A stretch of 64,000 bases of DNA from a virus, in the IMG/VR virus record IMGVR_UViG_3300035001_000006, positions 8,823 through 72,822 of that record. One strand, written 5' to 3'. Position numbers and translations under genes: made by a program. The notes below the pieces were generated by a model. The model did not search any database and had not been told where the DNA came from. It worked only from the letters and a program-made list of their open reading frames with translations. Positions within the stretch are counted from its first letter, which is position 1. The number at the start of each line of letters is the position of its first letter. Below are positions 25,367 through 64,000 of this stretch, one piece after another.

Positions 25367-25547
25367 AGACTACTTTTGACAAATATAGACAAAAGTTCAG
25401 AAAAATCTTACCCGTTTAGTGGGCACCTGGAGCCCAAGCGATCGCCGTCTAACAGAAAAAAGCCTACCCGTCAACGCTTTGGACAAAACGCAACGCCATA
25501 GACACGGCGCAAAAATACCGTCTAAGTTGTTGTCATGGGTTGTCTAA
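25365..25547. promoter_or_regulatory. Immunity / control region with repeated GTCTA(A/T) half-sites
   Basis: ATAGAC at 25365, 25385 and 25498; GTCTAA at 25447, 25520 and 25542; TAGAC-N16-GTCTA at 25499-25524 abuts the early promoter. Confidence 0.5.
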
Positions 25548-25558
25548 CGTGACATAAT
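25530..25558 (+). promoter_or_regulatory. Sigma70-type early promoter TTGTCA-N17-CATAAT
   Basis: Near-consensus hexamers with 17-nt spacing, upstream of the first rightward gene. Confidence 0.7.
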
Positions 25559-25585
25559 CTGTGAATGGGTTAGGCGATCGTGCCT

Positions 25586-25689
25586 CCCACGGCCCGCAAG
25601 GGTCTTGTTCTTCCCGTGGGCCATGCCGGCAAACCGTCGGCATGCGCTCCACCCTTGCTAAAGCCCTTGTCGGGGCCTAAGGGCGGAGC
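25586..25689 (+). ncRNA. Structured 5' leader of the early transcript (putative)
   Basis: Stems CCCACGG/CCGTGGG with an internal CCC-GCAA-GGG, CATGCCG/CGGCATG, and nested GCTCC/GGAGC, CCCTT/AAGGG, GCCC/GGGC. Confidence 0.45.
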
Positions 25690-25764
25690 TTTGTCCGGAG
25701 CGTTTTGCTCAATGACCGACCCCCTACATATCTTCAAGATAAGTAGCAGCAAAGGAAAAAGAGA

Positions 25765-26568
25765 ATGTCCAAAGCCATTATCGCGGCTCCGGCTCAAAAG
25801 GCCATCAATGCCACCCGTGCCGATCTCGAAAGCGCAACCCTCTCGACCATCGCAGCCGCCTGCGGCGCCGCCGGTGCGAACCTCTCGGCCTTGAGCGGCG
25901 CCGCAAAGGCGCTGTCGGGCAGCGTGACCAAAGCCGTCCTGCGCGTCATCGCAAAGGAGCGCATCGGCGACGTGGTCGGCCCGCTGCGCGAAGCCATCGG
26001 CAACGCTGGCAAGGGCGTATCGAACCTCTCGACCATCCGCACGGCCGTGCTGAAGATGCGCGTTGCCTACGCTGAAGGCAAGGCCGAGGACGGCGCCGGC
26101 CCTGCCCTGCCCGTGTGGGAGACCGTCGCCGAAGCGAAGGAATCCGGCGACGCGGCAGTGACAGCGGCCGTCAGCGCGTGCATTGTCTACGCTGGCAAGA
26201 CGGATGCAGGCGTGCCCGTCGACCCGCGCGTCGACACTGCGACCCGCGATGCGCTCATGGCCCGCATCAACGATGCATGCGCCGAATTCGGGCTTTCCGA
26301 AGACAGCGCGGGTAAGGTGCGCGGCGTGTATTTCACGGCGCTGCAAAACATCGTCGCCGATGCCGAGCAAGCCAGCGAGACGGCCGCCGCTGATGCCGAA
26401 CAGGCGCAGCAGCAGGCAGAAGATGCCGCCATCGTGGCCGATGCGCATGCGCAATTGCTGGCCGAAGTGGAGACGCTGCGCCAGATCGCGGCCGAAGCGA
26501 AGCGCATTTTCGGCATCGAAACCGAATCCGAATTGCTGGCGGAGATGGCGATCACGGATGCGGCCTGA
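25765..26568 (+). CDS. Ala-rich hypothetical protein, first early gene
   Basis: 267 aa; strong purine-rich RBS; acidic coiled-coil C-terminus; no recognisable domain. Confidence 0.8.
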   Translation: MSKAIIAAPAQKAINATRADLESATLSTIAAACGAAGANLSALSGAAKALSGSVTKAVLRVIAKERIGDVVGPLREAIGNAGKGVSNLSTIRTAVLKMRVAYAEGKAEDGAGPALPVWETVAEAKESGDAAVTAAVSACIVYAGKTDAGVPVDPRVDTATRDALMARINDACAEFGLSEDSAGKVRGVYFTALQNIVADAEQASETAAADAEQAQQQAEDAAIVADAHAQLLAEVETLRQIAAEAKRIFGIETESELLAEMAITDAA

Positions 26569-26675
26569 ATCCGCGACGAAACCACCGACCGGGCCGCTGG
26601 CCTTGTCGGGGTTGCCGTGTGCGCTCATAGAGCGCAGACGACAGCCTTTCCCTTGGACGCGCATGGAGACCTGCG

Positions 26676-27218
26676 ATGAAGCAACCCCGCTTATTGACCG
26701 CCAACGGCAAAGCCAAAACGGCCAGCCCAAACGGTGGCCCTCGCAGTGGTTTCGAGGTGGTCGACAAACGGGGCTTTGTGCGCCTTGTTGGCAGCATGGC
26801 GACTGCACCTCAGAACGACGCCGGCATCTCGGACATATCTCCGAGATTTGAGGAGCGCGTCGACGGGGTCTGGCAGTCGGTCTCGTGGACGACGCTGAGC
26901 CAGATCCGCCGGCTGAAGACCGAGCGAGACCGCCGCGCCTTCTTCGCTGTGCGTGTGGGCCTGGTGCGTGAGCTGCCGGGGGACGCGCACGGGATCGTTG
27001 ACGGGGAGGCATGGTGCTGTCCGCGCGACTACGACCGCGCCCTGGACCGGGACCAGTTCCTGGCCAAGGCGCTCAAGGTGGGCTTGCTCTCTATTGGCGG
27101 GCGCACCTACAGGCTCCGGGAGATCCGGCCCGACACGATTCAGCTGAACCGCGCCGCGGGCAGCGTCAACTACACCCGCGAGGCGCTGCTCGAGAGCATC
27201 TCGAGCGGCTCAATCTGA
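26676..27218 (+). CDS. Hypothetical protein
   Basis: 180 aa; RBS GGAGA; phage-like codon usage in the C-half. Confidence 0.6.
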   Translation: MKQPRLLTANGKAKTASPNGGPRSGFEVVDKRGFVRLVGSMATAPQNDAGISDISPRFEERVDGVWQSVSWTTLSQIRRLKTERDRRAFFAVRVGLVRELPGDAHGIVDGEAWCCPRDYDRALDRDQFLAKALKVGLLSIGGRTYRLREIRPDTIQLNRAAGSVNYTREALLESISSGSI

Positions 27219-27233
27219 ACTGAGGAAACCGAC

Positions 27234-27518
27234 ATGGACGAGATCATCGACGCGCGCCCCGTCAACGTCATCAGGCTCGAGTTGGCCATTGCCAACGAGC
27301 GCCTGGCGATGTTCGGCCACGGTGCCGATGTCGATGGTCGCGACTACTGGCTCGCCAGCAACCGGGTCAACTGCCTGACCGATGAGCTGCTCGTTGCCGA
27401 GAGCGCTGCGCAGCGCATGGTCGAGGGCGTCGTGGCGAAGTGGATGCATCGCTATGGGCCCCGACAACGTCAGCGCGAATCGACATTGGTTCAGGACTGG
27501 ATCGAGGTTCTGGACTGA
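27234..27518 (+). CDS. Hypothetical protein
   Basis: 94 aa; RBS GAGGA. Confidence 0.65.
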   Translation: MDEIIDARPVNVIRLELAIANERLAMFGHGADVDGRDYWLASNRVNCLTDELLVAESAAQRMVEGVVAKWMHRYGPRQRQRESTLVQDWIEVLD

Positions 27519-27520
27519 GC

Positions 27521-27646
27521 CGTTGACGGGGATGCTCACCGCGCAGCGGTGAGAGCGGCGCGCAGCGCCGCGGGCCTTGTCGTTGACTGGGGCGCGGGTG
27601 TTGCGGCGGGCGGCGACGTTGACGGGACCGAGCCCGCGCAGCGGGC
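27521..27646 (+). other. Cluster of three hairpins with an identical GC-GCA-GC apex, interleaved with three CGTTGAC motifs
   Basis: CTCACCGC-GCA-GCGGTGAG 27535-27553; GCGGCGC-GCA-GCGCCGC 27555-27571; GCCCGC-GCA-GCGGGC 27632-27646; CGTTGAC at 27521, 27581 and 27617. Confidence 0.75.
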
Positions 27647-27971: not shown

Positions 27972-28236
27972 AATGCGAGACCGTGCAGCCATCCTCTACG
28001 TGACCGTCGGCCCGTCGCCGCTCGGGATCCCGCTCGACGGCGGCGCACCGAGCTACGTGCCCACCACGCCCAAGGCGCTGGCCAGTCGGCGGCCGGTCGG
28101 CAAGCCGATCCGCCAGATGGCGTCGATCGACCGCTACCGCGAGGCCTTCAAGCCGATTCCCGCCAGACCAGCCCCGACAACGTCGATGGGCCGGTTCCTG
28201 CGCCGGATCGAGGACAGGCTGGCCGCCTGGCTCTGA
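27964..28236 (+). CDS. Hypothetical protein
   Basis: 90 aa; overlaps the previous stop; RBS AAAGGA. Confidence 0.55.
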   Translation: MREMRDRAAILYVTVGPSPLGIPLDGGAPSYVPTTPKALASRRPVGKPIRQMASIDRYREAFKPIPARPAPTTSMGRFLRRIEDRLAAWL

Positions 28237-28292
28237 GTTCTACCCGGGTACAAAGCCCCGACAAGGTCGAAAATCCCGGCTCAAGCGGCACT

Positions 28293-28937: not shown

Positions 28938-29246
28938 CGCAGCGCGCCGGGCGCCCCCGACAACGTCAACCGAACGGACCTGACCGTGAGCACCGGAACC
29001 CACCGGGGCCCGGCCTGTGTCGCTGCGACCGACGTTGTCGGGGATCCCGCCTGGCGCCCCGGCTGCGCTTGACCCCGATCACCCCGCCCTTGCTGGCGGC
29101 TCGAGCGCTCTGAGCGCCGACGTCGAACCCGGCGCAGAGCGATCTGCACAACAGGAGGAGCCGCCGTGCACACCTTACCGGCATGAAGCGGGCGAGCCGC
29201 TACGCCATCCCCTGAGAGCCTTCGCAAAGCGTGAGCGTCGAAGGCT
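28938..29246 (+). ncRNA. Highly structured intergenic element (candidate ncRNA / cis element)
   Basis: 13-bp stem 28955-28967/29031-29043; nested stems 29095-29102/29158-29165, 29106-29112/29135-29141 and 29115-29119/29130-29134; 8-bp stem 29217-29224/29239-29246. Confidence 0.5.
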
Positions 29247-33976: not shown

Positions 33977-34021
33977 TCAGACCTGTTCCGGCAGCAGTGC
34001 TAGCCCGACAACGACAACTCC

Positions 34022-35278: not shown

Positions 35279-35625
35279 GTGCCCACATCAAGCAGCTTGC
35301 CCAGAAGATCCTGAACCTGCAGGCGAAGGAGCATTCGCCGGCGGATGAAGAGCTCTTTCAAACGCTCGTCGAGCTCGGCGACCAGGCGCAGACCCTCGTG
35401 CGTCTGTGCACCCCAACCGAGCCGGGCCCCGACAACGTCGAAGGCAACCTCGCGGTGTTCAGCTACTGGATCGCGGCAGACAGCGGCTACACGGCCGAGG
35501 CGACCTACGCCGGCATCACTCCCGCGCAGTACACCAACGTGGTCGGCGCGCTGAACGGCAACCTGAAGCTGGTGACGCCCGAGATCGAGGAACAACTCGC
35601 ACGGCTTTCCGGGCTGGACAAGTAA
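35275..35625 (+). CDS. Hypothetical protein
   Basis: MSAHIKQLAQKILNLQ...; RBS AAAGGA; ATGA overlap. Confidence 0.7.
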   Translation: MSAHIKQLAQKILNLQAKEHSPADEELFQTLVELGDQAQTLVRLCTPTEPGPDNVEGNLAVFSYWIAADSGYTAEATYAGITPAQYTNVVGALNGNLKLVTPEIEEQLARLSGLDK

Positions 35626-37328: not shown

Positions 37329-37588
37329 AGCGCAGTGATGCCCTGCCCTATGTCGGCTACTGCGTCGACGACTCGCTCAACTCCTTCGAGGGTACCGAGG
37401 CAACGATCCCCGACAACGCCAGGCTCGTGGGCTGGCAGTGCGGCTTCGAACCCATGTTCGTCGCCGTCTGGTCGTACCTCGGCAGCCGGCTCGACGACGA
37501 CGACGCGATCGACATCGCAACGGACCTGCTCGACGAAATGGGCTGGTTCGGCGACGAGATGCCGCGCGAACCCGACTACGTGATCTGA
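37325..37588 (+). CDS. Hypothetical acidic protein
   Basis: GTGA overlap; RBS GGAGGA. Confidence 0.65.
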   Translation: MKRSDALPYVGYCVDDSLNSFEGTEATIPDNARLVGWQCGFEPMFVAVWSYLGSRLDDDDAIDIATDLLDEMGWFGDEMPREPDYVI

Positions 37589-38631: not shown

Positions 38632-38687
38632 CCCCCGACAACGTCAATCACTTCGCGCCCGAGACCGCTCGGGTGCTGGGAGAACTC

Positions 38688-39601: not shown

Positions 39602-40215
39602 ACTACTTCGATCCGCACGGCGAATCGATCAGCGTCTTCGACGTCTGCCACGCCTACCAGTTGCTGGAGGCCAACTACAGCCATGGCGGATGGCTGCGCG
39701 AGCGCCCCTCGAATAAGCGCCGCATGGAATCCATCGGCTGCCAGCTTGGCCGACTCGGCTACTCGGACGTCTACCGCACGGTAGATCTATGGGCGGACGA
39801 GGAAGAAGTCTCCGACGAGTTGGAGACCTCCAGCGACAACGAGAGCGTTCGTTACGTCTACTTCAAAAAGGTGCTCGAGTGGGGGCTTCCGCTCGACGAT
39901 GACGACCGCGCAGTGATCGACCGCACTTTCACGATCGAAGCCATCGAGAGATGGAGGCCCGACTACTTCCGCATGCGGCCCTGGCGAGCCGTTGTGCGAC
40001 CCGACTACTGCCCTGGGGATCTGGACATGCCTGTCTGGCAGGTCCACCTCCCCGACAACGCCACTGACATCAAGGCCGTCCTCTGCGATGGCAACGGCCC
40101 AATCAACTTCCACAGCTACAGCGAAGCAACCCAGAAGGCGAAAAGCCTCACAGAGGAAATGAATGCACGCAACCAAGGAGCCGGCGCGCAAGACGCGCAA
40201 CGCCCCGGCGCATAA
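39598..40215 (+). CDS. Hypothetical protein
   Basis: MNYFDPHGESISVFDVCHAYQLLEANY..GGWLRERPSN; ATGA overlap. Confidence 0.7.
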   Translation: MNYFDPHGESISVFDVCHAYQLLEANYSHGGWLRERPSNKRRMESIGCQLGRLGYSDVYRTVDLWADEEEVSDELETSSDNESVRYVYFKKVLEWGLPLDDDDRAVIDRTFTIEAIERWRPDYFRMRPWRAVVRPDYCPGDLDMPVWQVHLPDNATDIKAVLCDGNGPINFHSYSEATQKAKSLTEEMNARNQGAGAQDAQRPGA

Positions 40216-40903
40216 GCCGGCCACCTACAGCTACCACTTCACCCGCGTCAGCGGGAATCAGAAGACCGGCCCGATGCCTGTCACCACGACAAGCAGCAAC
40301 TCGTGCCCTCCCACCTGCAGCTTCAAGAAGAATGGATGCTACGCCGAGCACGGCCCGCTTGCCATTCACTGGCGGCAGATCGACGCAGGCAAGCGCGGCA
40401 CCCCGTTCGATGAGCTTCTCGAGGAGGTGCGCACCATTCGCCGCAACGCACTGTGGCGCCACAACCAAGCGGGCGACCTGACCCCGACAACGCCGGGGAA
40501 GATCGACGGGCAGCTGCTCACACGGCTTGCGATCGCGAATAGGGGTCGCCGCGGGTTCACTTACACCCACTACAAGCCGACGCCGCACAACCGCGCAGCG
40601 ATCCGGACGGCGAACCTCATGGGGTTCACGATCAACCTGAGCGCCGAGACGCTCGAACAGGCCGACGAGTACGCGGATATCGGCATCGCGCCGGTGGTCG
40701 TCGTGCTCCCAGCCGACGCCACGAAGGCGACAAAGACGCCGAACGGCCGGCTGGTAATCGTCTGCCCCGCCACCACCGGCAACACCGACTGCTTGAACTG
40801 CGGCATCTGCCAGCAGGTCGATCGCAAGGCGATCGTCGGGTTCCCTGCACACGGCAGTGGCCAGAAAAAGGCCCAGGCTGTTTTCTTCATGGAGCGAAAG
40901 TGA
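40163..40903 (+). CDS. Cys-rich phage protein with a radical-SAM-like CxxxC...CYA motif
   Basis: SCPPTCSFKKNGCYA, WRHNQAGD, GFTYTH, GFTINLSAET, CPATTGNTDCLNCGIC. Confidence 0.75.
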   Translation: MHATKEPARKTRNAPAHKPATYSYHFTRVSGNQKTGPMPVTTTSSNSCPPTCSFKKNGCYAEHGPLAIHWRQIDAGKRGTPFDELLEEVRTIRRNALWRHNQAGDLTPTTPGKIDGQLLTRLAIANRGRRGFTYTHYKPTPHNRAAIRTANLMGFTINLSAETLEQADEYADIGIAPVVVVLPADATKATKTPNGRLVIVCPATTGNTDCLNCGICQQVDRKAIVGFPAHGSGQKKAQAVFFMERK

Positions 40904-44136: not shown

Positions 44137-44352
44137 GCGGCGCACCCCGACATCGTCAACGACACCGGCCACCTGCACAGGTCTGGCCAGCCTGACCCTG
44201 CTTGACTGAGAGACAAAGATCTCTACTGCGCGGACCTCTTGCGCAATCGGCGACCGCGGCCGAGACAAGAAGAGGTGGATGCCTTGAGCTGACATAGAGC
44301 AGCGCAGCGCGATATTGCGCTAGGGAGCACCCCCCTTACATGCGGACAAACA

Positions 44353-44659: not shown

Positions 44660-45895
44660 ATGTACAACTCGAACGACACCCACAAGCTGCTCTCGAAGCT
44701 GGCCGCTACAAAGAGCAAGAACGAGAAGCTGCAGATCCTCAAGTCGGCGAGCCAGATCGACCGCAACACGATGCACCAGGCGATGAACCCGCTCATCACC
44801 TACGGCATCGCCAAGATCGACCCGCCCGCCGAGTTCGGCACCCTGCCCCTCGGCCCCGAGGAGGCGCTGCTGCTGGAGAGGCTCGCCTCCCGCGAGCTGT
44901 CCGGGAACGCCGCCAAGCGAGCGATCTCGATTGCGATGGAGCGACTCACTCCCGAAAGCGCAGAGGTCCTCAAGCGCATCATCACCAAGGACCTGAAGTG
45001 CGGCACTGGCACGACGCTGATCAACGAAATCTGGCCAGGCCTGATCCCCAAGTTCGCCGTCCAGCTGAGCGAGGTCTACGAACCCAAGCGTGTCACAGAG
45101 TGGCCTGTCGGCTTCCAGCGCAAGCTCGACGGCATGCGCGCCGTCGCCATCATCGACCCCGACAAGGGCGAGGTGAACATGGTGAGCCGCGAAGGTCGAC
45201 CGCTGCCCGCGCTCGAGCCCATCGCCGAGTTGCTGCGCTCCAAGCTGGACATCTTCCGCCCCTGGCGCGAGAAGCCGATCTTCCTCGACGGCGAAGCCAC
45301 CAGCGGGACGTTCAACGACACCGTGAGCCAGGTGCGCCGCAAGTCGAAGACTGCCGAAGACGCGGTGTTCAACATCTTCGACGTGTTCGGGCCGGGCGGT
45401 TCGACGATCGAGCTCTCGAGGCGACTCGAGCTGGTCGACTCCATCGTGCCCGCCTACGACGATCCGCGCATCGGCCGTGTCCCCATGAAGCTGTGCTACT
45501 CCGACGAGGAGGTGCAGGCCGCAGTCAACGTGGAGTGGGATGCGGGCGAAGAAGGCGGCATGGTCAAGCGCCTCGACGCGCCCTACGAGCTCAAGCGCGG
45601 CTACAACTGGATGAAGATCAAGGGCTACGACTCGGCCGAGTTCGAGGTGCTCGGCGTGTTCGAAGGCACCGGCCAGTACGTCGGAACTGCCGGCGGGTTC
45701 ATCGTGCGGCTCGAGAACGGCGGCGAGTGCCGCGTGGCGGGCATCACCGAGAAGCTGCGCAGCCTCATCTGGAACAACCCCGAGGTCATCGGCCGGCTCA
45801 TCGAAGTCGGCTTCCACGAGCGCACCCCCGACGGTTCGCTCCGCCACCCCCGGTTCGTCAAGTTCCGGGATACCTTCACCGGAGAAAGGGAATAA
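44660..45895 (+). CDS. lig: ATP-dependent DNA ligase
   Basis: Motif I RKLDGMR, FLDGE, FNIFDV, EEGGMVK, RGYNWMKIK, SLRHPRFVKFR. Confidence 0.92.
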   Translation: MYNSNDTHKLLSKLAATKSKNEKLQILKSASQIDRNTMHQAMNPLITYGIAKIDPPAEFGTLPLGPEEALLLERLASRELSGNAAKRAISIAMERLTPESAEVLKRIITKDLKCGTGTTLINEIWPGLIPKFAVQLSEVYEPKRVTEWPVGFQRKLDGMRAVAIIDPDKGEVNMVSREGRPLPALEPIAELLRSKLDIFRPWREKPIFLDGEATSGTFNDTVSQVRRKSKTAEDAVFNIFDVFGPGGSTIELSRRLELVDSIVPAYDDPRIGRVPMKLCYSDEEVQAAVNVEWDAGEEGGMVKRLDAPYELKRGYNWMKIKGYDSAEFEVLGVFEGTGQYVGTAGGFIVRLENGGECRVAGITEKLRSLIWNNPEVIGRLIEVGFHERTPDGSLRHPRFVKFRDTFTGERE

Positions 45896-48209: not shown

Positions 48210-51083
48210 ATGAGTTTTCTCTGGTACCAGAAGACAGGCGGTGAAGACGCCTGGGTGGAAGGCCTTGCCGAACACCGACAAAAGATCATCGCCGAGCTCC
48301 ACCCCGCATTCGTGACGGTGCTCGACGCACACACCGCCCCCGACGCAACGTGGGGCCGTGAGGAATACTCGAAGATGAAGTACAGCGGCCCGCTGTACTT
48401 CGACTGGGATGCGGAAGACGTCAAGGAGACGATCCCCCAATTCCAGCTGTTCCTGGCCAAGTTCCAGGACGAACAGGGCGTGGACCTCAAGCAGTTGCGC
48501 CTGTACGCCACCGGCGGCCGCGGCTTCCACTGCGAGGTGCCCGAGGACGTCTTCATGCCGAAGGTGCCCCGCACCGGCGTGCAGAGCCTGCCCTACATCT
48601 ACAAGGAAATGGCGCTCGAGCTGGTCGTGGACACGCTCGACCTACGCGTCTACACGGGCCGCAAGGGGCGCATGTGGCGCACCCCGAACATCGTTCGCAG
48701 CAACGGCAAGTACAAGGTGCCGATCACGCTGGAAGAGGCGTTGAAGATGACGCCGGAGCGCTACGACGAGATCTGCAGCGCGCCGCGCGCGGAACCCGAG
48801 CGTGCCGCCCCGACAACGGCGATGGGCCTGACGGCCCTCTACGTCAAGGCACAGCACAAGATCAACGAGGCGGTGAAGCGCCAGGCCAAGGCCGGTGTTG
48901 ACACTGCGCTCCTGGCCAAGTTCAAGGGCGAGTTCCCCGCAACGATGCAGCGCATCATGGCCGGCGAAGGCATCATGCCCGGCACCGGCTTCCAGAAGCT
49001 CTCGATGCAGCTGGCCATCGCCGCCAACGCGCTCGGCAAGTCCGCGGACGAGCTGGTCGCGGCGGCCGAAGGCCTCTGCAAGACGCACTCGAGCGACTCG
49101 AGCCGCTACAACAGCCCACGCAAGCGCAAGGAAGAGTTGCGGCGGATGTGGGACTACACGCACGACAACCCGTGCTACTCCTTCTCCGCAGGCGGCCTCC
49201 GCTCGCTGCTCGAGCCCGGCGCGCCCTCCGGCGATCTGGACGTCGTCAACCGTTCGCTCGAAGGCCACGTGCCGATGGACGACGAGGAGACGCTCACCGA
49301 GGAGCAGCAGGCCGAAATCGAGCTGGCCAACCGCGGCCAGATGGCCAACGTGATGATCCACCGCCAGGGCATCTTCCTGCGCGGGCCTGAGGGCCTCAAG
49401 CCGCTCAGCCACATCGCGCTGACCAAGCCAACCAGGCTGCTGTCCGCCGAGGACCGCATGCACATCGGGTTCGAGTGCGACGTGCTCGCCGGCGGCGTGC
49501 GCCACTCCACCGCCTACGTCTCCCTCGAGACGTTCAAGTCCCGCGCCAAGATGCACGAGACCTTCTCGAGCTACGGCGGGACCTTCATGGGAAACGACAT
49601 TCAAGCAGGAGCAATCTTGACCGCACTCGACAGCGCCGCGAAGAAGGCCAATCGCGAGGTCTTCGTGGTGCACCGCGAGGGGCTGGACCTTGTCCAGAAC
49701 CCGAACGTGACCGACCAGATCCAGCGTGACGTCATCTGGGCATCGCCCGACGGCGTCCTCTCTCACAACCCCGAGGTGAACTATCGCTTCCGCGCACGTC
49801 TCTCCAACGAGCCGGTGTACCGCAGCGACGTTCACGCCTGCCCGCCGATCGAGGACACCCCCGATACGCGAGCATGGCTGCATCACCTCTTCCAGATCAA
49901 CGAGCCGCTGGTCGTCGCCCAGATGGTCGGATGGTTCGTTTCGACGCTGCACAAGCAGTTCTACCAGGAGGCAACCAACCAGTTTCCGCTCCTTCACCCC
50001 AACGGCAGCGCCGGCTCCGGCAAGACGCAGACCACCGCACTGCTCGCGCGGCTCTGGCACCACACCACGAAACCCCTGCAGTACGGCTGCGGCGTCGCGA
50101 TGACACCCTTCATGCTCAAGTCGGCATGCCAGGGCAGCGCTTCGATCCCGCTGATCCTGGACGAGTACAAGCCGGCCGAACTCGGCCCGGTGCGCACCGA
50201 CCTCCTGCTGCAGACGTTCCGCCTCTCCTACAACCAGGCGCGCGGCGCAACCGGTGGCATCTCCCGCGGCGGCGCCGCGAGCAGCTTCCGGGACGTGACC
50301 AACTTCGACTACAGCGCGCCGATCGTCTTCATGGCTGAGTCGCAGGAGACGCAGACCGCCATCGTGCAGCGCTCGCTGCCCGTCAGCTTCACCCAACGTG
50401 GAAAGGACACCCACTCCGAGCACTTCTACGCGGCTCAGGCCGGCGTCGACTACCTGCCCCGCCTTGGCGCGGCGTTGCTGCGCGCGGGAATGGTCGAGAC
50501 AGTCGAGAGCCGCAAGCAGGCGCTGGCGCCACTCGTCAAGGATCTGCGCGCCTCGCTTGACCACTACGTGCACGACCGCCAGGTCTACAACTTGGCCGTC
50601 GTCCTCGCAGGCCTGAATTTCCTCGACGACGTGCTGCAGATCATCTTCGGTGCCGAGTTGCGCCCAGACCTGGATCGCCTCAAGGAGGCGGTCTACACCA
50701 ACAAGCAGGAGATCGCAGCTCAGGCAGTGAACGAAGCAGCAAAGGCGTTGAACGACATGTCGCTCATCAGCCGAACCGAGGCCCCCGACAGCGAGTTCGC
50801 CCTCCGCGAAGGCGTGGACTACCTGCACGGCGAAGGCTTCATCGAGATCTTGATGCGCGAGTCGTTCGTCAAGTACTTCGCATGGAACAAGAGAAAGGGG
50901 TTCAACGCCCTCTTCTCCAGTGCAGATGCATTCATCGTGGCGATGGCCAAGTTCGACGCCACGATCGACAAACTTTGCCTTAACTCTCCGCTTCGGAAGG
51001 GTGGGCAATCAAGGATCTACCGATTCAGCCTTGAACGGCTGGCGGCAGAAGGCGTCGAGATGTTCCGCCAAGGGCGGGACTGA
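48210..51083 (+). CDS. Primase-helicase (AEP/Prim-Pol N-terminus, P-loop ATPase C-terminus)
   Basis: PLYFDWD, YATGGRGFH (AEP motifs); NGSAGSGKT (Walker A), LILDEYK (Walker B). Confidence 0.85.
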   Translation: MSFLWYQKTGGEDAWVEGLAEHRQKIIAELHPAFVTVLDAHTAPDATWGREEYSKMKYSGPLYFDWDAEDVKETIPQFQLFLAKFQDEQGVDLKQLRLYATGGRGFHCEVPEDVFMPKVPRTGVQSLPYIYKEMALELVVDTLDLRVYTGRKGRMWRTPNIVRSNGKYKVPITLEEALKMTPERYDEICSAPRAEPERAAPTTAMGLTALYVKAQHKINEAVKRQAKAGVDTALLAKFKGEFPATMQRIMAGEGIMPGTGFQKLSMQLAIAANALGKSADELVAAAEGLCKTHSSDSSRYNSPRKRKEELRRMWDYTHDNPCYSFSAGGLRSLLEPGAPSGDLDVVNRSLEGHVPMDDEETLTEEQQAEIELANRGQMANVMIHRQGIFLRGPEGLKPLSHIALTKPTRLLSAEDRMHIGFECDVLAGGVRHSTAYVSLETFKSRAKMHETFSSYGGTFMGNDIQAGAILTALDSAAKKANREVFVVHREGLDLVQNPNVTDQIQRDVIWASPDGVLSHNPEVNYRFRARLSNEPVYRSDVHACPPIEDTPDTRAWLHHLFQINEPLVVAQMVGWFVSTLHKQFYQEATNQFPLLHPNGSAGSGKTQTTALLARLWHHTTKPLQYGCGVAMTPFMLKSACQGSASIPLILDEYKPAELGPVRTDLLLQTFRLSYNQARGATGGISRGGAASSFRDVTNFDYSAPIVFMAESQETQTAIVQRSLPVSFTQRGKDTHSEHFYAAQAGVDYLPRLGAALLRAGMVETVESRKQALAPLVKDLRASLDHYVHDRQVYNLAVVLAGLNFLDDVLQIIFGAELRPDLDRLKEAVYTNKQEIAAQAVNEAAKALNDMSLISRTEAPDSEFALREGVDYLHGEGFIEILMRESFVKYFAWNKRKGFNALFSSADAFIVAMAKFDATIDKLCLNSPLRKGGQSRIYRFSLERLAAEGVEMFRQGRD

Positions 51084-52042: not shown

Positions 52043-52786
52043 ATGAGCTTCCCCGACAACGTCCGCTTCTTCGTAGCGGACACAGAAACCACTGGCGCCG
52101 GGCCCGAGGACAAGGTCTGCGAGTTGGGATGGATCGAGATCGACGAGAACATGAACGTTCTCTCCGAGGTCCAGAGCCTGATCGACCCGCAGTACATGAT
52201 CTCGCCCAGCGCGTCAGGCATTCACGGCCTGACCAACGCCGACGTCGAACAGGCGCCGACGATCGAGGAGTTCTTCAGCGTCGACGACCCCAGCTGCTAC
52301 GGCCGCAAGGTCACCGACCCGATCGTCCTCATCGGCCACCGCATCTCATTCGACTACCGCTTCCTGTCGCCCTACATCAACGTGACGCAGGAGCTGTGCA
52401 CGCTGAGGTGGGCGCGCAAGCTGTACCCGCACGCCGACGACCACAAGCTGTCGACGCTGATGTTCGCCCTTGGCCTCCCGCGGCCCGAAGGCGCGCACCG
52501 GGTGATGTCCGACATCTACTCCGCTTTCCACCTCGTGAAGCACATTTGCGAGCGGACGGGCACGACCATCCGACAGCTTGCCGAAGCGAGCATTGCGCCC
52601 ATGGAGGTGGCGATGATGCCGTTCGGAAAGCACAAGGGGCAACCGATCTCCGACGTGCCGAAATCGTATATCCGCTGGGCCATGGACAACATGAAAGACC
52701 TGGACGCCGATTTCGTGCATACTTTTCAGCTCGCTCTCAATAAAAAGAAAAATAATGAGCAATCTACTGCAGGCGCAGGAGCCTAG
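52043..52786 (+). CDS. DEDDh 3'-5' exonuclease (ExoX-like)
   Basis: VADTETTG, GHRISFD, AHRVMSD, and C-terminal MPFGKHKGQPISDVPKSYIRW. Confidence 0.9.
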   Translation: MSFPDNVRFFVADTETTGAGPEDKVCELGWIEIDENMNVLSEVQSLIDPQYMISPSASGIHGLTNADVEQAPTIEEFFSVDDPSCYGRKVTDPIVLIGHRISFDYRFLSPYINVTQELCTLRWARKLYPHADDHKLSTLMFALGLPRPEGAHRVMSDIYSAFHLVKHICERTGTTIRQLAEASIAPMEVAMMPFGKHKGQPISDVPKSYIRWAMDNMKDLDADFVHTFQLALNKKKNNEQSTAGAGA

Positions 52787-60381: not shown

Positions 60382-60626
60382 CCAAGGAGCGCTACTGCCC
60401 CTACCACCAGGGCTTTGTCGCCGACGAGGGCTTCCGCATCGTCGTCGACGTCCGCTCGAACACCAAGCGCGGCATGTGCCCGGCCTGTCAGGAGAAGCGG
60501 CGCCAGCCGCGCGCCGCGCTGCAGGCCCTCGCCGATCGCGATCGATCCGAGCGCGCCGCCAAGTCTCAACGCATCACCGCGGAAGCGCGCGAAAGGAATT
60601 CCAATGCGAACCCTGATCATCAATGA
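60378..60626 (+). CDS. Small Zn-binding protein
   Basis: CPYH...CPAC. Confidence 0.55.
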   Translation: MTKERYCPYHQGFVADEGFRIVVDVRSNTKRGMCPACQEKRRQPRAALQALADRDRSERAAKSQRITAEARERNSNANPDHQ

Positions 60627-61710
60627 CCTGCACCTGGGCGTGAACCGCTCGGGCGGCACCACCCTCGCCTCTCTCACTTCGCTCCGCGAGTATGGGCACA
60701 CGAAGCACCGGGAGCTCCTCGACCTGGCCAAGGACGGTGACACCGTCGTCGTCAACGGGGACCTCTCGGACGTCTACGACATCCCGCTCGGCCAGGCGAT
60801 CGAGATCTACGCCGTTGTCGGGGAGTTCCTGCGCGCGCAGAAGAGCTCGCGTGTTGTCTGGGCCGTGGGCAACCACGACTTGAGCAAGGACTCGAGCAAG
60901 CTGGGTACGGTGGCCTTCCTGGGCGCCCTGCTCGAGGCCCAGTTCCCCGGGCGCTTCCAGCTCCTGGACAAGCCCGGCCTGCTGGGCAGCGACACCTACA
61001 TCATCCCGCACGTGGCGAACCAGGAGATGTTCGACATGGAGCTGACGCGCATCCCGACGGGCGTCACCTTCGTGCTGCTCCACTGCAACTACGACAACGA
61101 GTTCGCCGGCGCGATGGACCACTCGCTGAATCTGTCGCGCAAGCAGGCGAAGGCGCTCAAGGACCGCGGCATCACCATGGTGTTCGGTCACGAGCACCAG
61201 CAGCGCGACCTCATCGGCGGGGCCGTGGCCATCGTTGGCAACCAGTTCCCGAGCTCGGTGAGCGACTGCCTGAACAACGAAACGAAGCGCTGCGCAGTGA
61301 TCGAGGACGGCCGGCTCTCGTTCATCCAGACCTGGTCGCGCGACGACAAGGTCGGCTACTTCAAGGAGGTCGACTGGCGCGACGTCGCCAGCTTCATCCA
61401 CGAGCCGAGCGGCTTCATTCGCGTGGTCGGCAACGCCAAGGGCGAAGAGGCAGCCGAGATGATCAAGGCGATCTCGACGCTGCGCTCCAAGAGCGAGGCT
61501 TTCGTCATCACCAACGCGGTGCAGGTCGAGCAGGCAGAGGGCCTGGGCGAGATCGCCGCCAGTGTCGAGGACGTGCGCAGCGTGAACGTGATCGACCTGC
61601 TGCTCGAGCTGGTCACGCCCGAGCAGGCGCGCGTCATCAAGCAGCTCACCGGCCGCGAGGTCGAGCTCGAGATCGCCCAAGAAGAAGAACACGAGGAAGC
61701 AACCGCATGA
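60604..61710 (+). CDS. Metallophosphoesterase nuclease (SbcD/Mre11/gp47-like)
   Basis: NDLHLG, NGDLSD, VGNHD, LHCN, FGHEH; paired with an SMC ATPase. Confidence 0.85.
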   Translation: MRTLIINDLHLGVNRSGGTTLASLTSLREYGHTKHRELLDLAKDGDTVVVNGDLSDVYDIPLGQAIEIYAVVGEFLRAQKSSRVVWAVGNHDLSKDSSKLGTVAFLGALLEAQFPGRFQLLDKPGLLGSDTYIIPHVANQEMFDMELTRIPTGVTFVLLHCNYDNEFAGAMDHSLNLSRKQAKALKDRGITMVFGHEHQQRDLIGGAVAIVGNQFPSSVSDCLNNETKRCAVIEDGRLSFIQTWSRDDKVGYFKEVDWRDVASFIHEPSGFIRVVGNAKGEEAAEMIKAISTLRSKSEAFVITNAVQVEQAEGLGEIAASVEDVRSVNVIDLLLELVTPEQARVIKQLTGREVELEIAQEEEHEEATA

Positions 61711-62555
61711 CCGCAAAAATCATCGCTCATTCCATCTCGCCCGACGGCAAGGAGATCGTCACCTTTCAGCTCGCCTACTGGCGCGCCATCCACGGCGAGC
61801 TGAAGACGCACCGCGCGTTCTCGACCAGTTCGATGTCCTCGCGCGCCGTGCCGGTTGCAAAGATGATCGCGCAGGTGCGCAACGACCCATTCATCCCGAA
61901 GCACATCGGGCGCAACACTGGGGGCATGCAGGCTCACACCCCGCTGTCCTCGGAGGAGCGAGAGAAAGCCGTCCGCATCTGGCAAGGGGCCGCACTCGAG
62001 GCAGCCGACGCCGCACAGATGCTCGACGAGATCGGCGTGGCCAAGCAGATCGCGAACCGGGTGCTTGAGCCCTTCCAGATCATGCACACCGTGGTCACGG
62101 CGACGGAGCTCGACAATTTCTGGGCGCTGCGTCGGCACCCGGACGCCGAGCCGCACTTCCACGACCTTGCCGATGAGATGTTCGCCGCGCTGGCGAAGTC
62201 CGGCGCGGTGGAGCGCGGCGGCACCGCATGGGACGAGTCGTCGTGGCATCTGCCTTACGTCTCGGACGCTGAGCGCTCCGCCAACAGCCCTGCCACGCTG
62301 TTGCGGCTGAGCGCAGCGCGATGCGCTCGTGTCAGCTACCTCAACCACGACAGCAGCGCACCGAGCGTGGAAAAGGATCTCGCGCTTTTCGACCGGCTGG
62401 CCGGCAGCGCGCCGATACACGCGTCGCCGCTGGAGCACCAGGCCCTGCCTCAGTTCCACGCCGACCTCTCCAGCCGCAGTTTCCGCGGCTGGCTCCAGTT
62501 CCGCGAGGTCTTCGAAGAGGACATCGCCGTCATGAAGGCCCTCACTCATGCTTAA
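61707..62555 (+). CDS. thyX: FAD-dependent thymidylate synthase
   Basis: THRAFSTSSMSSRAVP, KQIANRVLEPF, NFWALR, SAARCARVSY, HASPLEH. Confidence 0.85.
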   Translation: MTAKIIAHSISPDGKEIVTFQLAYWRAIHGELKTHRAFSTSSMSSRAVPVAKMIAQVRNDPFIPKHIGRNTGGMQAHTPLSSEEREKAVRIWQGAALEAADAAQMLDEIGVAKQIANRVLEPFQIMHTVVTATELDNFWALRRHPDAEPHFHDLADEMFAALAKSGAVERGGTAWDESSWHLPYVSDAERSANSPATLLRLSAARCARVSYLNHDSSAPSVEKDLALFDRLAGSAPIHASPLEHQALPQFHADLSSRSFRGWLQFREVFEEDIAVMKALTHA

Positions 62556-64000
62556 CAAGATCATCCTGACCAACTTCCAGCGCCACCGCCACCTCGAGGT
62601 GGTGTTCAACGCGGGCATCAGCGCCCTGCGCGGCTCGAACGAGGCCGGCAAGTCGACTCTGATCCGCGCGATCTGCTACGCGCTTTTCGGCGCGAAAGCG
62701 CTCCCGATGTCGCTTTCCGAAGCCGTGACCTGGGGCGAGCCCGAGGCGTCGCTGAAGGTCCTGCTCGAGTTCGTCGTCGACTCGGTCGTCTACACGATCA
62801 AGCGCGGCAAGTCCGGCGCCGAGATCACCTACGACGGCGGCATCGTCACCGGCCAAAACGAGTGCACGGCCTTCGTGGCCAAGCTGCTGAAGGCGGACGC
62901 CGTCAGCGCCTCGCGCCTGATGCTGGCCAACCAGAACGAGATCCGAGGTGCGCTCGAGAAGGGTGCGGCCGAGACCACCAAGCTGATCGAGCAGCTCGCC
63001 GAGTTCGACCAGATCGACAACCTGATCGAGACGATGGAAGGCACGCTCACCCTGGGCAGCCCGAAGGTGGCGGAAGCCGCCATCGCCAACGCCGAGATCC
63101 AGCTCGACCAGGCGCGCGCCGAGGCCACCCCCGTCGACGTCGAGGCCTACGGCCGGGAGATCGCCGCCCGGCAGGCTGAGCTTGCCGCGGCCGAGGACGC
63201 CCTTGCGCAGCTTGACGCGCAGATCGCCGAGCTGCACACCGAAGCGAACAAGCTCACCGACCAGGCCAAGGAGCGCGCAGCTGCTGACGGCGCCGTCGGG
63301 ACGGCCGCCGCGCGCCTTCAGCGCGCACGGCTGAAGCTCGAGGAAGCCCGCGGCGTCGCCGAACCGGCCGCCGTAGACCTAGCCGCACTGCGCGCCCGGG
63401 TGCTCCAGCTGAGCCAGCTCGAGGTCGTGCGCGGTGCGCGCGCGGCCGCCGAGCCGTTCCTGGGTGAACCACAGCTCGCGAAGGACGACCGCTACGAGGG
63501 CGTCTACGAGGCATTGGTGGCTGACATCACCGCAACCCGCAGGGACGTGCAGGCCAAGTCCTCCACGATTTCCGGCCTGGAGCGAACCGCAGCCCTTGCT
63601 GAGTCGAAGATCTCCACCGGAAGCTGCGCGACTTGCGGCCAGGACATCAGCCACCTGCCCGAGGTGGCAGCGCGCAACGCCGAGCTGAAGGCGGAAGCAG
63701 ATGCCGCCCGCCTCAAGCTCGAGACTGCCACGAAAGAGCACACCGAACTGCTCGAGTACCTGCGTGCGCTCGAGGCGGTCCAGAAGGAGTCGGCCCCGCG
63801 TCTGCAAGCGGTCGACCGTCTGGGCAAGTATCTGAAGGTGTCGGACGCACTCCTCCCCCCGACGCTCGAGTGGATCGGTGGCGAGATCCCCGACAACGCC
63901 GCGGCCGAGATCGCAACCATCGAGCAGCAGATCGTCGCGCACGAGAAGGCCGTGCGGGCGTTCGACATCGCTTCTGGCCAGGCCGATGCAGCCGCCAAGG
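62548..64000 (+). CDS. SMC-family ATPase (SbcC/Rad50/gp46-like), runs off the right edge
   Basis: Read manually: MLNKIILTNFQRH...GSNEAGKST (Walker A), coiled coil, Zn-hook CATCG at about 63625. Confidence 0.9.
   Translation, partial: MLNKIILTNFQRHRHLEVVFNAGISALRGSNEAGKSTLIRAICYALFGAKALPMSLSEAVTWGEPEASLKVLLEFVVDSVVYTIKRGKSGAEITYDGGIVTGQNECTAFVAKLLKADAVSASRLMLANQNEIRGALEKGAAETTKLIEQLAEFDQIDNLIETMEGTLTLGSPKVAEAAIANAEIQLDQARAEATPVDVEAYGREIAARQAELAAAEDALAQLDAQIAELHTEANKLTDQAKERAAADGAVGTAAARLQRARLKLEEARGVAEPAAVDLAALRARVLQLSQLEVVRGARAAAEPFLGEPQLAKDDRYEGVYEALVADITATRRDVQAKSSTISGLERTAALAESKISTGSCATCGQDISHLPEVAARNAELKAEADAARLKLETATKEHTELLEYLRALEAVQKESAPRLQAVDRLGKYLKVSDALLPPTLEWIGGEIPDNAAAEIATIEQQIVAHEKAVRAFDIASGQADAAAK

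What the first reader, a model, noticed from the sequence alone, without database searches (positions are those of the whole stretch)
25467..63898. Recurrent asymmetric motif CCCCG(A/T)CAA(C/G)G confined to the early/replication arm, with a sense/antisense split: candidate undescribed regulatory system
Exact CCCCGACAACG found by eye at 27459, 28172, 28955, 35427, 37408, 38633, 40050, 40482, 48808, 52051 and 63888 (+) and at 29033 and 60813 (-). CCCCGACAAGG occurs at 28256(+), 25665(-) and 26601(-); CCCCGTCAACG at 27257(+) and 27521(-). Near matches lie at 25467, 44145, 27581(-) and 27615(-). A rough base-composition estimate gives about 0.1 expected copies of the exact 11-mer in this window, versus 13 seen. 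Coding copies fall in different frames (PDN, PTT, PRQ), so it is not a peptide motif. I saw no full copy in the 25-kb virion arm. Several + copies sit right after stop codons (28955, 38633, 44145), while nearly all - copies sit in structured intergenic segments of the early transcript. Two models: (a) oriented asymmetric repressor sites like mycobacteriophage L5 stoperators; (b) leader-derived small RNAs carrying C(C/G)UUG(U/A)CGGGG pair with the complementary sites along the transcript, as P4 CI RNA (seqB vs seqA/seqC) or P1 C4 RNA do, to control termination or immunity.
Basis: partly seen in the sequence, partly recalled or inferred. Interest (0 to 1): 0.8.

Follow-up and report, generated by a model that had tools for sequence, protein, structure and literature searches.

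The report
Oriented 13-base word in prophage early arm
A small family of temperate phages of Variovorax and a related genus writes 15-30 copies of one 13-base DNA word into its early/replication genes, mostly pointing the same way as transcription; it most likely is a docking site for a phage regulator that polices early transcription, much like the 'stoperators' of mycobacteriophages, but the protein that reads it is not yet known.

Summary
CCCCGACAACG occurs 13 times in the window against 0.05 expected. All copies lie in the rightward early arm, and 11 of 13 are sense to early transcription. The full word is 13 bases, CCCCG(A/T)CAA(C/G)GNC.

The same word is the most over-represented k-mer in five further related prophages. 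One of them is distant, with proteins 25-64% identical. Pooled over six phages:
- distal early arms: 61 sense and 6 antisense exact copies
- late arms: 0 and 1
- first about 5 kb after the repressor gene: dense, both orientations

About 550 host-family genomes carry the 13-mer only at chance level. Enrichment survives a codon-preserving shuffle. Rare codons are kept at orthologous sites, and individual sites turn over while their number is kept.

Best reading (about 0.45): asymmetric double-stranded-DNA docking sites that act in a polar way on the early transcription unit, i.e. stoperator-like. The reader protein is unresolved. The repressor's tandem-HTH N-terminal domain is the only sequence-specific DNA binder shared by all six phages. 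However, it has diverged to 28% identity while the word has not changed, and different repeats surround P_R.

The antisense-RNA model (P4 CI / P1 C4) gets little support. This scan noted the same word earlier in another genome (e1-5355841).

The parts
24557..25366 (-). Immunity repressor gene (269 aa). N-terminal tandem-HTH domain (residues about 10-104), linker, and a lambda-CI-type S24 C-terminal domain. Candidate reader of the word.
   Evidence: Pfam Peptidase_S24 1.7e-19 and weak HTH_28. PDB profile hit to the lambda CI C-terminal domain, 2.5e-25. AF2 model with eight helices in two HTH subdomains, pLDDT about 80. Orthologues in all six phages at 28-72% identity.
25427..25476 (+). Bipartite element CCTGGAGCC-N30-TACCCGTCAACG, conserved in all six phages. 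Its right part is a 2-mismatch copy of the word (25466-25476). The minus strand reads TTGACG, then 17 nt, then TGnTAnnnn, which is a candidate leftward promoter of the repressor gene.
   Evidence: Read directly from the intergenic regions of G0, G1, G2, V97, W and X. The promoter reading is inference.
25530..25558 (+). Early rightward promoter P_R (TTGTCA, 17 nt, CATAAT, with TG). It is flanked by phage-specific TAGAC/GTCTAA repeats and has no consensus copy of the word.
   Evidence: Promoter scan, 10 of 12 matches. Repeats read. Mismatch scan.
25665..25675 (-). CCCCGACAAGG in the P_R leader. Probably not a family member: the relatives have the hairpin GCCATTGTCATGGC here, and this phage keeps the stem by compensatory change.
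26601..26611 (-). Antisense copy (CCCCGACAAGG) in the gap after the first early gene. Conserved in G2. W has one sense and three antisense copies at this spot.
26996..27006 (-). Antisense copy (CCCCGTCAACG) inside the 180-aa early gene. Conserved in G2 and V97, nearly so in G1.
27257..27267 (+). Sense copy (CCCCGTCAACG), 23 nt after the start of the 94-aa gene. Conserved in G2 and V97.
27459..27469 (+). Exact sense copy, frame P-R-Q using the rare codons CGA and CAA. Conserved in G1 and G2. V97 has the A6>T variant, which is synonymous.
27521..27627 (-). Three antisense copies: 27521 (1 mismatch, CCCCGTCAACG), 27581 and 27617 (2 mismatches each). They are interleaved with three GCA-triloop hairpins in a 180-nt gap.
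28172..28182 (+). Exact sense copy near the end of the 90-aa gene.
28256..28266 (+). Sense copy (CCCCGACAAGGTC), 20 nt after a stop codon and about 25 nt before an intrinsic-terminator-like hairpin with a T run (about 28293-28322). It is followed by an AT-rich region with AGTGSCACTT-like repeats.
28943..29043 (.). Conserved 12-mer TGCTGTCACGCA (28943-28954 region), then exact sense copy 28955-28965, then exact antisense copy 29033-29043. The two copies are 78 nt apart and form a perfect 13-bp inverted repeat.
   Evidence: The 12-mer plus sense copy is present in five phages. The antisense partner is intact only in G0 and G1, imperfect in V97 and G2, and absent in W.
34003..34013 (+). GCCCGACAACG (1 mismatch; exact in G2 and W at the orthologous spot). 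Homology with G2 begins exactly here, and a terminator hairpin follows 10 nt downstream.
35427..35437 (+). Exact sense copy, lineage-specific.
37408..37418 (+). Exact sense copy, shared with V63.
38633..38643 (+). Exact sense copy 1 nt after a TGA stop, followed by a hairpin, RBS and ATG of the next gene. W has the same layout after an extra gene.
40050..40060 (+). Exact sense copy, lineage-specific.
40482..40492 (+). Exact sense copy inside the DUF7227 gene. Relatives have near-misses here (CCCCCTCAACG, CCCCAACAACG).
44145..44155 (+). CCCCGACATCG (1 mismatch; exact in V63), 9 nt after a stop and between two hairpins. It lies upstream of a conserved promoter-like TTGACT element that heads the replication module.
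45157..45167 (+). CCCCGACAAGG in the DNA ligase gene, shared with V63 and W.
48808..48818 (+). Exact sense copy in the primase gene (P-T-T as CCG ACA ACG, keeping the rare codon ACA). Identical in five phages.
52051..52061 (+). Exact sense copy 8 nt after the ATG of the exonuclease gene. Identical in five phages.
60813..60823 (-). Exact antisense copy in the SbcD-like gene, shared with G2 and V63. It may be held by the protein sequence, as the SbcC antisense copy beyond the window is.
   Evidence: By analogy.
63888..63898 (+). Exact sense copy in the SbcC-like gene. Lineage-specific here, present in W.

Best explanation
The 13-bp word CCCCG(A/T)CAA(C/G)GNC is a docking site on double-stranded DNA for one sequence-specific protein encoded by this phage family. 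The sites belong to the early, rightward transcription unit and act on it in an orientation-dependent way.

The most likely role is to keep the 40-45 kb early/replication arm silent in the lysogen, by stopping RNA polymerase that escapes P_R or starts at internal promoters. That is how stoperators work in Cluster A mycobacteriophages. The dense, two-orientation cluster in the first about 5 kb, together with the conserved variant upstream of the repressor gene, would be the operator and autoregulation part of the same system.

The best candidate reader is the repressor's N-terminal tandem-HTH domain. Each subdomain would take one half of the word, and the lambda-CI-type C-terminal domain would pair molecules bound at the inverted site pairs.

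Shown:
- existence of the word, selection at the nucleotide level, confinement to the early arm, and strand bias
- conservation across six phages
- absence from host genomes above chance

Inferred:
- that a protein rather than an RNA reads it
- which protein reads it
- that binding blocks elongation
For: 1. Enrichment and specificity. There are 13 exact copies against 0.05 expected. The word is the top over-represented k-mer in G0, G1, G2 and W, and the distant phage X carries about 20 exact copies of it.
2. Confinement and polarity over six phages. Distal early arms hold 61+/6- exact copies (binomial 1.5e-12). Late arms hold 0+/1-. The proximal 4.8 kb holds 26+/24- degenerate copies.
3. Nucleotide-level selection.
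   - Enrichment survives a codon-preserving shuffle.
   - At the two sites orthologous in five phages, 6 of 8 codons in the word are identical, against 10 of 29 in the flanks. The rare codon ACA is kept.
   - Sites turn over between phages while their number is kept.
4. The word is not a host signal.
5. The tolerated variants are A6>T (17 cases) and C10>G (15 cases). These swaps look alike in the minor groove and would break RNA pairing. The paired sense/antisense copies vary independently within this set.
6. A variant, TACCCGTCAAC(G), is conserved in all six phages at a fixed 29-30 nt from CCTGGAGCC, in the repressor gene's upstream region. In L5-type phages a conserved repressor site lies in the same place (PMC6550527).
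7. The repressor N-terminal domain is the only predicted sequence-specific dsDNA binder present in all six early regions. It models as two HTH subdomains joined by a linker. It gives a weak structural match to the bipartite Tc3 DNA-binding domain. The L5-type repressor binds its 13-bp asymmetric site as a monomer with two domains (PMC9283540).
8. Silence there would not need such sites.
Against: - The word and its flanking preferences are identical in all six phages, although the repressor N-terminal domain falls to 28% identity. In Cluster A phages the stoperator motif drifts with the repressor (PMC6550527).
- No consensus copy overlaps P_R in any phage. P_R is instead surrounded by repeats that differ between phages (TAGAC, AGACA, TTAGAC, GCACAG, ATTACA). 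These look like the true immunity operators.
- About half of the copies lie inside genes rather than in short intergenic gaps.
- Copies often lie upstream, not downstream, of the internal promoter-like elements (44145).
- The balanced orientation in the proximal region is not what a pure polar roadblock predicts.
- No binding or expression data exist.
- Part of the sense bias may come from P-D-N codons, which are cheap in a high-GC3 genome. Host coding copies are also mostly sense. The density there is 200-300 times lower, however.
Confidence: 0.45

Rival explanations
1. Strand-specific DNA-processing signal tied to the T5-like replication module. The word would be the recognition site of a phage nickase, giving localized single-strand interruptions in virion DNA as in T5, phiKMV-like phages and phage tf. 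Alternatively it would be a preferred priming or loading site for the phage primase on the lagging-strand template of a rightward fork.
For: - Phage tf has 14 copies of a 9-bp asymmetric consensus, all in one strand and at similar positions in relatives, and each is nicked. phiKMV-like phages have a 20-bp nick consensus in one strand (PMC3517423).
- This phage family carries ligase, SNF2 helicase, a large primase, dNMP kinase, PolA with 5'-3' exonuclease, SbcCD and a gp32-like SSB.
- Primase, SNF2, PolA and SbcCD are shared by all six word-bearing phages.
- The word ends in G-N-C with C at 95%. This recalls the GTC template triplet of T7-type primases (my own knowledge).
- Sites inside genes in any frame, and turnover with kept density, fit a DNA-level signal.
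Against: - The word is absent from the late arms: 0+/1- in about 150 kb. A replication, nicking or priming signal would be expected genome-wide on one strand, or mirrored about an origin.
- Close inverted pairs, 44-78 bp apart, would place nicks on both strands.
- The A6>T variant breaks the would-be GTC-like logic of the complementary reading.
- G2 lacks the ligase.
- Enrichment at gene junctions is not expected for this role.
- No candidate nickase is conserved. The NUMOD4-HNH gene is present in G0 only.
Confidence: 0.15
2. RNA-level element of the early transcript. The sense copies would be targets, and the antisense copies in the proximal gaps would be guides or cis-masks, for RNA-RNA pairing that controls termination, processing or translation. 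Alternatively the sense word would be read on the mRNA by a sequence-specific RNA-binding protein or endoribonuclease that shuts off early messages, as RegB does in T4.
For: - The sense bias and confinement to one transcription unit fit.
- Sites are enriched just after stops and just after starts.
- Several intergenic copies sit between or before hairpins and terminators. Flanks are slightly more structured than random, with upstream p=0.002.
- Every phage has antisense copies in the proximal region, and each variant class exists in both senses.
- The 28955/29033 pair is a perfect 13-bp complement. In G1 it has a matched T>G / A>C change at position 12.
- No conserved protein would be needed, which fits the word's constancy.
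Against: - No Rfam family is hit, including C4.
- The leader copy is specific to this phage.
- Pairing partners are not maintained. 27459/27521 has an A.A mismatch in three phages. The 29033 partner is degenerate in G2 and V97 and missing in W.
- The tolerated variants are transversions, not wobble-compatible transitions.
- Half of the copies are in translated sequence, where ribosomes would compete.
- The conserved copy at 25466 lies upstream of the P_R start and would not be in the early RNA.
- A 13-nt protein-read RNA site would be unusually long.
Confidence: 0.12
3. Signal read on the non-template DNA strand of the elongating host RNA polymerase (ops-like), or another host-factor site, used to keep transcription processive through the many terminators of a 45-kb early operon.
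For: - The word is on the non-template strand and works at the DNA level, so it could be anywhere in genes.
- Its length of 12-13 nt matches a transcription bubble.
- Its constancy across phages with different repressors fits a conserved host reader.
- Several copies lie 10-35 nt upstream of terminator-like hairpins.
Against: - No host regulon is visible. The 13-mer is at control level in about 550 host-family genomes. The host copies inspected are ordinary coding hits.
- No NusG/RfaH-like or Q-like protein was found among early genes by Pfam or PHROGs.
- The antisense copies and the A/T, C/G tolerance are not expected for single-strand base-specific reading.
- Known ops systems use one or two sites per operon (my own knowledge).
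Confidence: 0.08
4. Recombination linker. The repeated, co-oriented word serves mainly as short homology, or as a site for a phage recombination function, at which related phages exchange early-gene cassettes.
For: - Several homology blocks between relatives start or end exactly at a copy: 34003 in G0 with 53844 in G2 and 52775 in W; also 38633 and 44145.
- The small-gene part of the arm, which is the most mosaic, has the highest density.
Against: - Once gene junctions are controlled for, junctions with a copy are breakpoints in 16 of 23 cases against 101 of 196 without (one-sided p = 0.08).
- Copies inside conserved replication genes and the proximal inverted clusters are not explained.
- No site-specific recombinase is conserved beyond the integrase.
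Confidence: 0.05

Closest known systems
Stoperators and operators of Cluster A mycobacteriophages (L5 gp71, TipsytheTRex repressor; PMC9283540, PMC6550527)
   Same: - The word is 13 bp and asymmetric, with 20-35 copies per genome.
- It is predominantly in one orientation relative to transcription.
- A conserved site lies upstream of the repressor gene.
- The candidate reader has two DNA-binding subdomains in one chain.
- The phage is temperate, with a separate replication arm.
   Different: - Here the sites are confined to the early arm, not both arms.
- About half lie inside genes.
- No consensus copy overlaps the early lytic promoter.
- The word does not drift with the repressor (28-72% identity, same logo).
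- The repressor has a lambda-CI S24 C-terminal domain in five of six phages, and shows no sequence similarity to gp71.
- The hosts are Betaproteobacteria.
- Binding and orientation-dependent blocking are untested.
22-bp oriented repeat of T1-like phages (T1, Citrobacter phage Stevie; PMC4319613)
   Same: There are 16-20 copies of an asymmetric repeat oriented one way with respect to transcription. Its function is unknown, and its authors compared it with stoperators.
   Different: The T1 repeat is longer, AT-rich and predominantly intergenic, and the phages are lytic. No sequence relation to the word here.
Nick-site consensus sequences of phages tf, phiKMV-like and T5 (PMC3517423)
   Same: A short asymmetric consensus is present about 4-14 times in one strand only, at similar positions in relatives, inside or outside genes. 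The phages carry a PolA-type replication module and a ligase.
   Different: Nick sites are spread over the genome rather than over one arm. No inverted clusters are reported. Nicks are untested here, and no nickase candidate is conserved.
P4 CI RNA (seqB against seqA/seqC) and P1 C4 antisense RNA immunity
   Same: Short complementary sequence pairs lie within an early transcript close to the immunity region.
   Different: - No Rfam C4 match.
- The complementary partners are not conserved or co-varying.
- There are dozens of targets through 40 kb, including coding sequence, rather than two sites in a leader.

Membership tests
L5-type stoperator system | Asymmetric site of about 13 bp present in more than 20 copies per genome | tested here: met
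   The logo is CCCCGWCAASGNC.
L5-type stoperator system | [quoted passage not shown] | tested here: met
   The distal early arm holds 61 sense and 6 antisense exact copies over six phages. This is not met in the first 4.8 kb, where the degenerate count is 26+/24-.
L5-type stoperator system | Sites distributed over both genome arms, mostly in short intergenic gaps | tested here: not met
   Late arms hold 0+/1-. About half of the sites lie inside genes, although junctions are enriched, 26 of 77 against 13 expected.
L5-type stoperator system | A consensus site overlaps the early lytic promoter (operator) | tested here: not met
   No copy with 2 or fewer mismatches overlaps P_R in any of the six phages. 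Only a 3-mismatch CCATGACAACA lies at the -35 in G0.
L5-type stoperator system | The immunity repressor binds the sites as a monomer with two DNA-binding domains | not testable with these tools
   The AF2 model shows two tandem HTH subdomains and a weak Tc3-like fold match. There are no binding data.
L5-type stoperator system | The site motif co-varies with repressor divergence | tested here: not met
   The logo is identical in all six phages, with repressor identity 28-72%.
L5-type stoperator system | Reversing a site abolishes the block to elongation | not testable with these tools
   This needs a reporter assay.
P4 CI / P1 C4 antisense-RNA immunity | A C4/CI-type structured RNA gene in the immunity region | tested here: not met
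   There is no Rfam match at gathering score in the window, or at E<=1 in 24500-30000.
P4 CI / P1 C4 antisense-RNA immunity | Conserved complementarity between the RNA's loop sequence and its target sites | tested here: inconclusive
   Complementary copies exist in all phages, but the partners vary independently and several are mismatched or lost.
Localized-nick sites (T5, phiKMV, tf) | Single-strand breaks at the consensus in virion DNA | not testable with these tools
   No virion DNA reads are available. Only assembled DNA runs hold the stretch.
Localized-nick sites (T5, phiKMV, tf) | All consensus copies in one strand across the genome | tested here: not met
   Copies lie on both strands in the proximal region and are absent from the late arm.

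The most novel reading that the evidence does not exclude
The word is not read by the immunity repressor at all. It would be a family-wide signal, independent of immunity specificity and dependent on orientation, written into the early arm and read by a still unidentified conserved factor. That factor could be a replication-module protein such as the primase or SNF2 enzyme, or the host transcription machinery. The signal would couple early transcription, replication or DNA entry to the direction of the arm. The phage-specific repeats at P_R would carry immunity separately. This would be a second, previously undescribed layer of genome-wide punctuation in temperate phages of Proteobacteria.
Probability: 0.3. 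Interest if true: 0.8.

Novelty: new variant of a known kind. Interest (0 to 1): 0.62.

Why it matters
Dispersed, oriented repressor sites that silence a whole prophage arm are so far a speciality of Cluster A actinobacteriophages. Finding the same layout in Betaproteobacterial prophages with a lambda-CI-type repressor would show that genome-wide elongation control arose more than once and can be combined with a classical SOS-cleavable repressor.

The system also poses a sharp question. The 13-bp word has stayed letter-perfect while the only shared DNA-binding domain has diverged to 28% identity. Either many sites freeze a protein's specificity, or an unknown reader exists. Both outcomes are testable in culturable lysogens (V. 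paradoxus ISL-3, Variovorax sp. PBS-H4).

In practice the word is a one-line diagnostic for this phage family and marks the extent of its early transcription unit.

Tried and rejected
- **Host-wide signal (Chi, uptake sequence, KOPS-like): rejected.** The 13-mer is at control level in 148 Variovorax and 400 same-family genomes. The host copies are coding IPDNA-type hits.
- **Promoter box (MotA-like, ECF-like, CII-like antisense promoters): rejected.** No conserved -10-like element lies at any fixed distance on either side. The logo flanks show only codon periodicity.
- **Integron attC-like cassette sites:** the core does not fit RYYYAAC/GTTRRRY, by inspection.
It is the most conserved small early protein but is widespread in prophages of genomes that lack the word.
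It resembles gp32-like SSBs.
They have no homologue in the distant word-bearing phage X and no family or fold lead.
- **More distant PolA relatives (three IMG/VR contigs):** they have no analogous dispersed word. One has an unrelated intergenic RBS-leader repeat.
- **Searches that found nothing:**
  - The phage-record DNA search found no match.
  - The pattern scan of viral contigs found only the two known relatives, and the metagenome scan found one 2.2-kb contig.
  - The literature search for the word found only unrelated primer strings.
- **Sequencing runs:** no RNA holder is listed for the immunity region, so expression could not be examined.
- **Mosaic-breakpoint association:** it looked striking by eye but is not significant after controlling for gene junctions.
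- **Antisense copy in SbcC beyond the window:** it is explained by the ABC signature motif TLSGSTLD rather than by selection on the word.

Full report
**What the window is**

The window is bases 8823-72822 of an 82-kb IMG/VR provirus.
- Virion genes run leftward from about 23100.
- A repressor gene lies at 24557-25366 on the minus strand. It has a lambda-CI-type S24 C-terminal domain.
- P_R lies at 25530-25558.
- A rightward early arm runs from 25765 to the SbcC-like gene that ends just beyond the window.
- That arm carries ATP-dependent ligase, SNF2 helicase, a 957-aa primase, a gp32-like SSB, a DnaQ-type exonuclease, dNMP kinase, a DksA-like protein, PolA with 5'-3' exonuclease, a Holliday-junction resolvase, SbcD, ThyX and SbcC.
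- The integrase and the host spoT gene mark the right end.
- The host genus is Variovorax. A V. paradoxus ISL-3 prophage encodes a 93%-identical primase.

**The observation**

The degenerate form gives 20 copies against 0.17 expected.

Aligning all copies from six phages extends the word to 13 bases, CCCCG(A/T)CAA(C/G)GNC. C at position 13 is kept in 95% of copies, T is preferred at position 12, and C is disfavoured just upstream.

A shuffle that keeps every protein sequence and each gene's codon usage leaves 2.8 sense copies on average. Most of those are the intergenic copies it does not touch. The observed count is 12.

**Relatives**

Five further prophages carry the same word as their outstanding k-mer:
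- two IMG/VR records
- V. paradoxus ISL-3
- Variovorax sp. PBS-H4
- a prophage in a 3.3-Mb genome of the same family but not among the Variovorax genomes searched. Its proteins are only 25-64% identical to those here.

Pooled counts:

| Region | Copies (+/-) |
|---|---|
| First 4.8 kb after the repressor gene, degenerate form | 26 / 24 |
| Rest of the early arm, exact | 61 / 6 (binomial 1.5e-12) |
| Late arms, exact | 0 / 1 |

The 13-mer is at the level of its reversed control in the other roughly 545 genomes searched. The eleven non-prophage copies in ISL-3 are mostly I-P-D-N-A coding hits such as GroES. The word is therefore a property of this phage family and of its early arm, not of the host.

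**Selection**
- Proximal sites are conserved among relatives whose flanks are only 66-87% identical.
- In the arm, two sites are identical in five phages: primase 48808 and exonuclease 52051. Others are lineage-specific, and orthologous positions show near-misses.
- The distant phage shares almost no positions yet has about 20 copies.
- At the two five-way orthologous sites, 6 of 8 codons in the word are identical, against 10 of 29 in the flanks. The rare codon ACA is retained.
- One antisense copy, in SbcC beyond the window, is explained by the ABC signature motif. The true strand bias is therefore, if anything, stronger.
- Sites are enriched at gene junctions, 26 of 77 against 13 expected. 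Several sit just after a stop and before a hairpin or terminator.
- Some homology blocks between phages begin exactly at a copy. Once junctions are controlled for, this link is not significant.

**DNA or RNA**

Among one-mismatch copies, two changes dominate on both strands: A6>T (17 cases) and C10>G (15 cases). These transversions are alike in the minor groove of duplex DNA and would disrupt base pairing. Wobble-compatible transitions are not favoured.

Sense/antisense pairs do not co-vary.
- 27459/27521 carries a central A.A mismatch in three of four phages.
- The antisense partner of 28955 is perfect here and in one relative, degenerate in two, and absent in one.
- The antisense copy in the P_R leader (25665) is peculiar to this phage. 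The relatives have the hairpin GCCAUUGUCAUGGC there.

Rfam finds nothing, including the C4/CI family. About half of all copies are in translated sequence. I therefore prefer a reader of duplex DNA. The RNA model is weakened but not excluded.

**Who reads it**

The repeats that flank P_R differ between phages: TAGAC/GTCTAA here, AGACA, TTAGAC, GCACAG and ATTACA in the others. No copy of the word with two or fewer mismatches overlaps P_R. The repressors are 28-72% identical, yet the word and its flank preferences do not differ between phages. In Cluster A mycobacteriophages the stoperator motif drifts with the repressor (PMC6550527). All of this argues against the repressor as reader.

Other points argue for it.
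- The repressor N-terminal domain is the only predicted sequence-specific duplex-DNA binder shared by all six early regions. The immediate-early proteins here have no counterpart in the distant phage.
- That domain persists even where the S24 domain has been replaced. The distant phage has a 181-aa form.
- It models as two tandem HTH subdomains, with a weak match to the bipartite Tc3 domain. This is what a monomer needs to read an asymmetric 13-bp site, as the L5-type repressor does (PMC9283540).
- Its first subdomain holds 10 of the 13 invariant N-terminal-domain residues.
- A variant, TACCCGTCAAC(G), lies at a fixed 29-30 nt from CCTGGAGCC upstream of the repressor gene in all six phages. 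This parallels the autoregulatory site of L5-type phages (PMC6550527).

Other conserved candidates were set aside:
- DUF7227 is common in prophages of genomes without the word.
- The 300-aa protein is SSB-like.

**Why the early arm only**

Absence from about 150 kb of late-arm sequence speaks against genome-wide DNA-processing roles such as nicks, priming or Chi-like protection. This holds despite the good precedent of one-strand nick consensus sequences in phage tf and phiKMV-like phages (PMC3517423) and despite the T5-like replication module here. It fits a role tied to the host-polymerase early transcription unit.

**Verdict**

The stoperator-like reading is the best supported in kind (0.45), but the system fails three membership features of the L5 system, and its reader is unresolved.

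Rivals:
- strand-specific DNA processing or priming: 0.15
- RNA-level element: 0.12
- non-template-strand or host-factor signal: 0.08
- recombination linker: 0.05
- the remainder is unassigned

This scan recorded the same word earlier in another genome (e1-5355841). That follow-up also concluded that the word is a protein docking site with unknown reader, and left the direction-dependence open. Here the strand bias of the distal arm is established statistically across six phages.

I found no description of the word in the paper library. The nearest published analogues are Cluster A stoperators and the oriented 22-bp repeat of T1-like phages (PMC4319613).

Noticed in passing
window 25427-25476: A strictly conserved bipartite element, CCTGGAGCC-N30-TACCCGTCAACG (N29 and ...CAAGG in the most distant phage), lies between the repressor gene and P_R in all six phages. 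The surrounding intergenic DNA is otherwise divergent. On the minus strand it gives TTGACG, 17 nt, then an extended -10-like TGnTA, which is a candidate repressor-gene promoter.
   Followed up: partly
window 25364-25560: Six copies of WTAGACR, in both orientations, surround P_R and the repressor start. Relatives have different repeats at the same places (AGACA, TTAGAC, GCACAG, ATTACA), each ending in a conserved ...CAAAAGTTT next to the repressor start codon. These look like the real, phage-specific immunity operators.
   Followed up: partly
window 28283-28600: An AT-rich (about 45% GC) gap lies after the immediate-early terminator. It has several near-palindromic AGTG(C/G)CACTT-like repeats. 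The PBS-H4 prophage has six or seven of them at the same place. This could be an origin or a second control region.
   Followed up: no
window 28943-28954: The 12-mer TGCTGTCACGCA lies 6-13 nt upstream of a sense copy of the word in five phages, while the sequence downstream diverges.
   Followed up: partly
L070:1080-1607 (distant prophage, same-family genome G178): The repressor homologue there is 181 aa. It has the same tandem-HTH N-terminal domain but a coiled-coil tail instead of the S24 autocleavage domain, so induction must work differently.
   Followed up: no
L052 (PBS-H4 prophage; my coordinates W 58283-58331): Three tandem copies of the word with an 18-nt period start 8 nt after a gene's ATG and encode P-D-N-V-T-A repeats. 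This shows how copies can multiply by slippage.
   Followed up: no
window 27519-27700: A 180-nt gap holds three hairpins with an identical GCA triloop, alternating with three antisense copies or near-copies of the word. My crude gene call placed an ORF start here (27549), but a start at about 27717 with its own RBS is more likely.
   Followed up: no
window 18257-18823 and 23233-24531: The NUMOD4-HNH endonuclease gene and the 432-aa low-GC3 gene next to the repressor are absent from the five related phages compared gene by gene, and only the HNH gene finds a weak match elsewhere (in W and X, at another locus). They look like recent insertions.
   Followed up: partly
L055-L058 (IMGVR_UViG_3300021440_000018), 25248-46469: A distant PolA relative has nine co-oriented copies of TGACACTTTCACACAAGGAG-type sequence, each a stop codon plus a shared RBS leader immediately before a gene. 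This is a different kind of repeated early-gene junction.
   Followed up: partly
window 44190-44230: A promoter-like element, ctgcTTGACTgagagacaaagatctcTACT, is conserved in four of the phages just upstream of the replication module. It lies downstream of the word copy at 44145.
   Followed up: no
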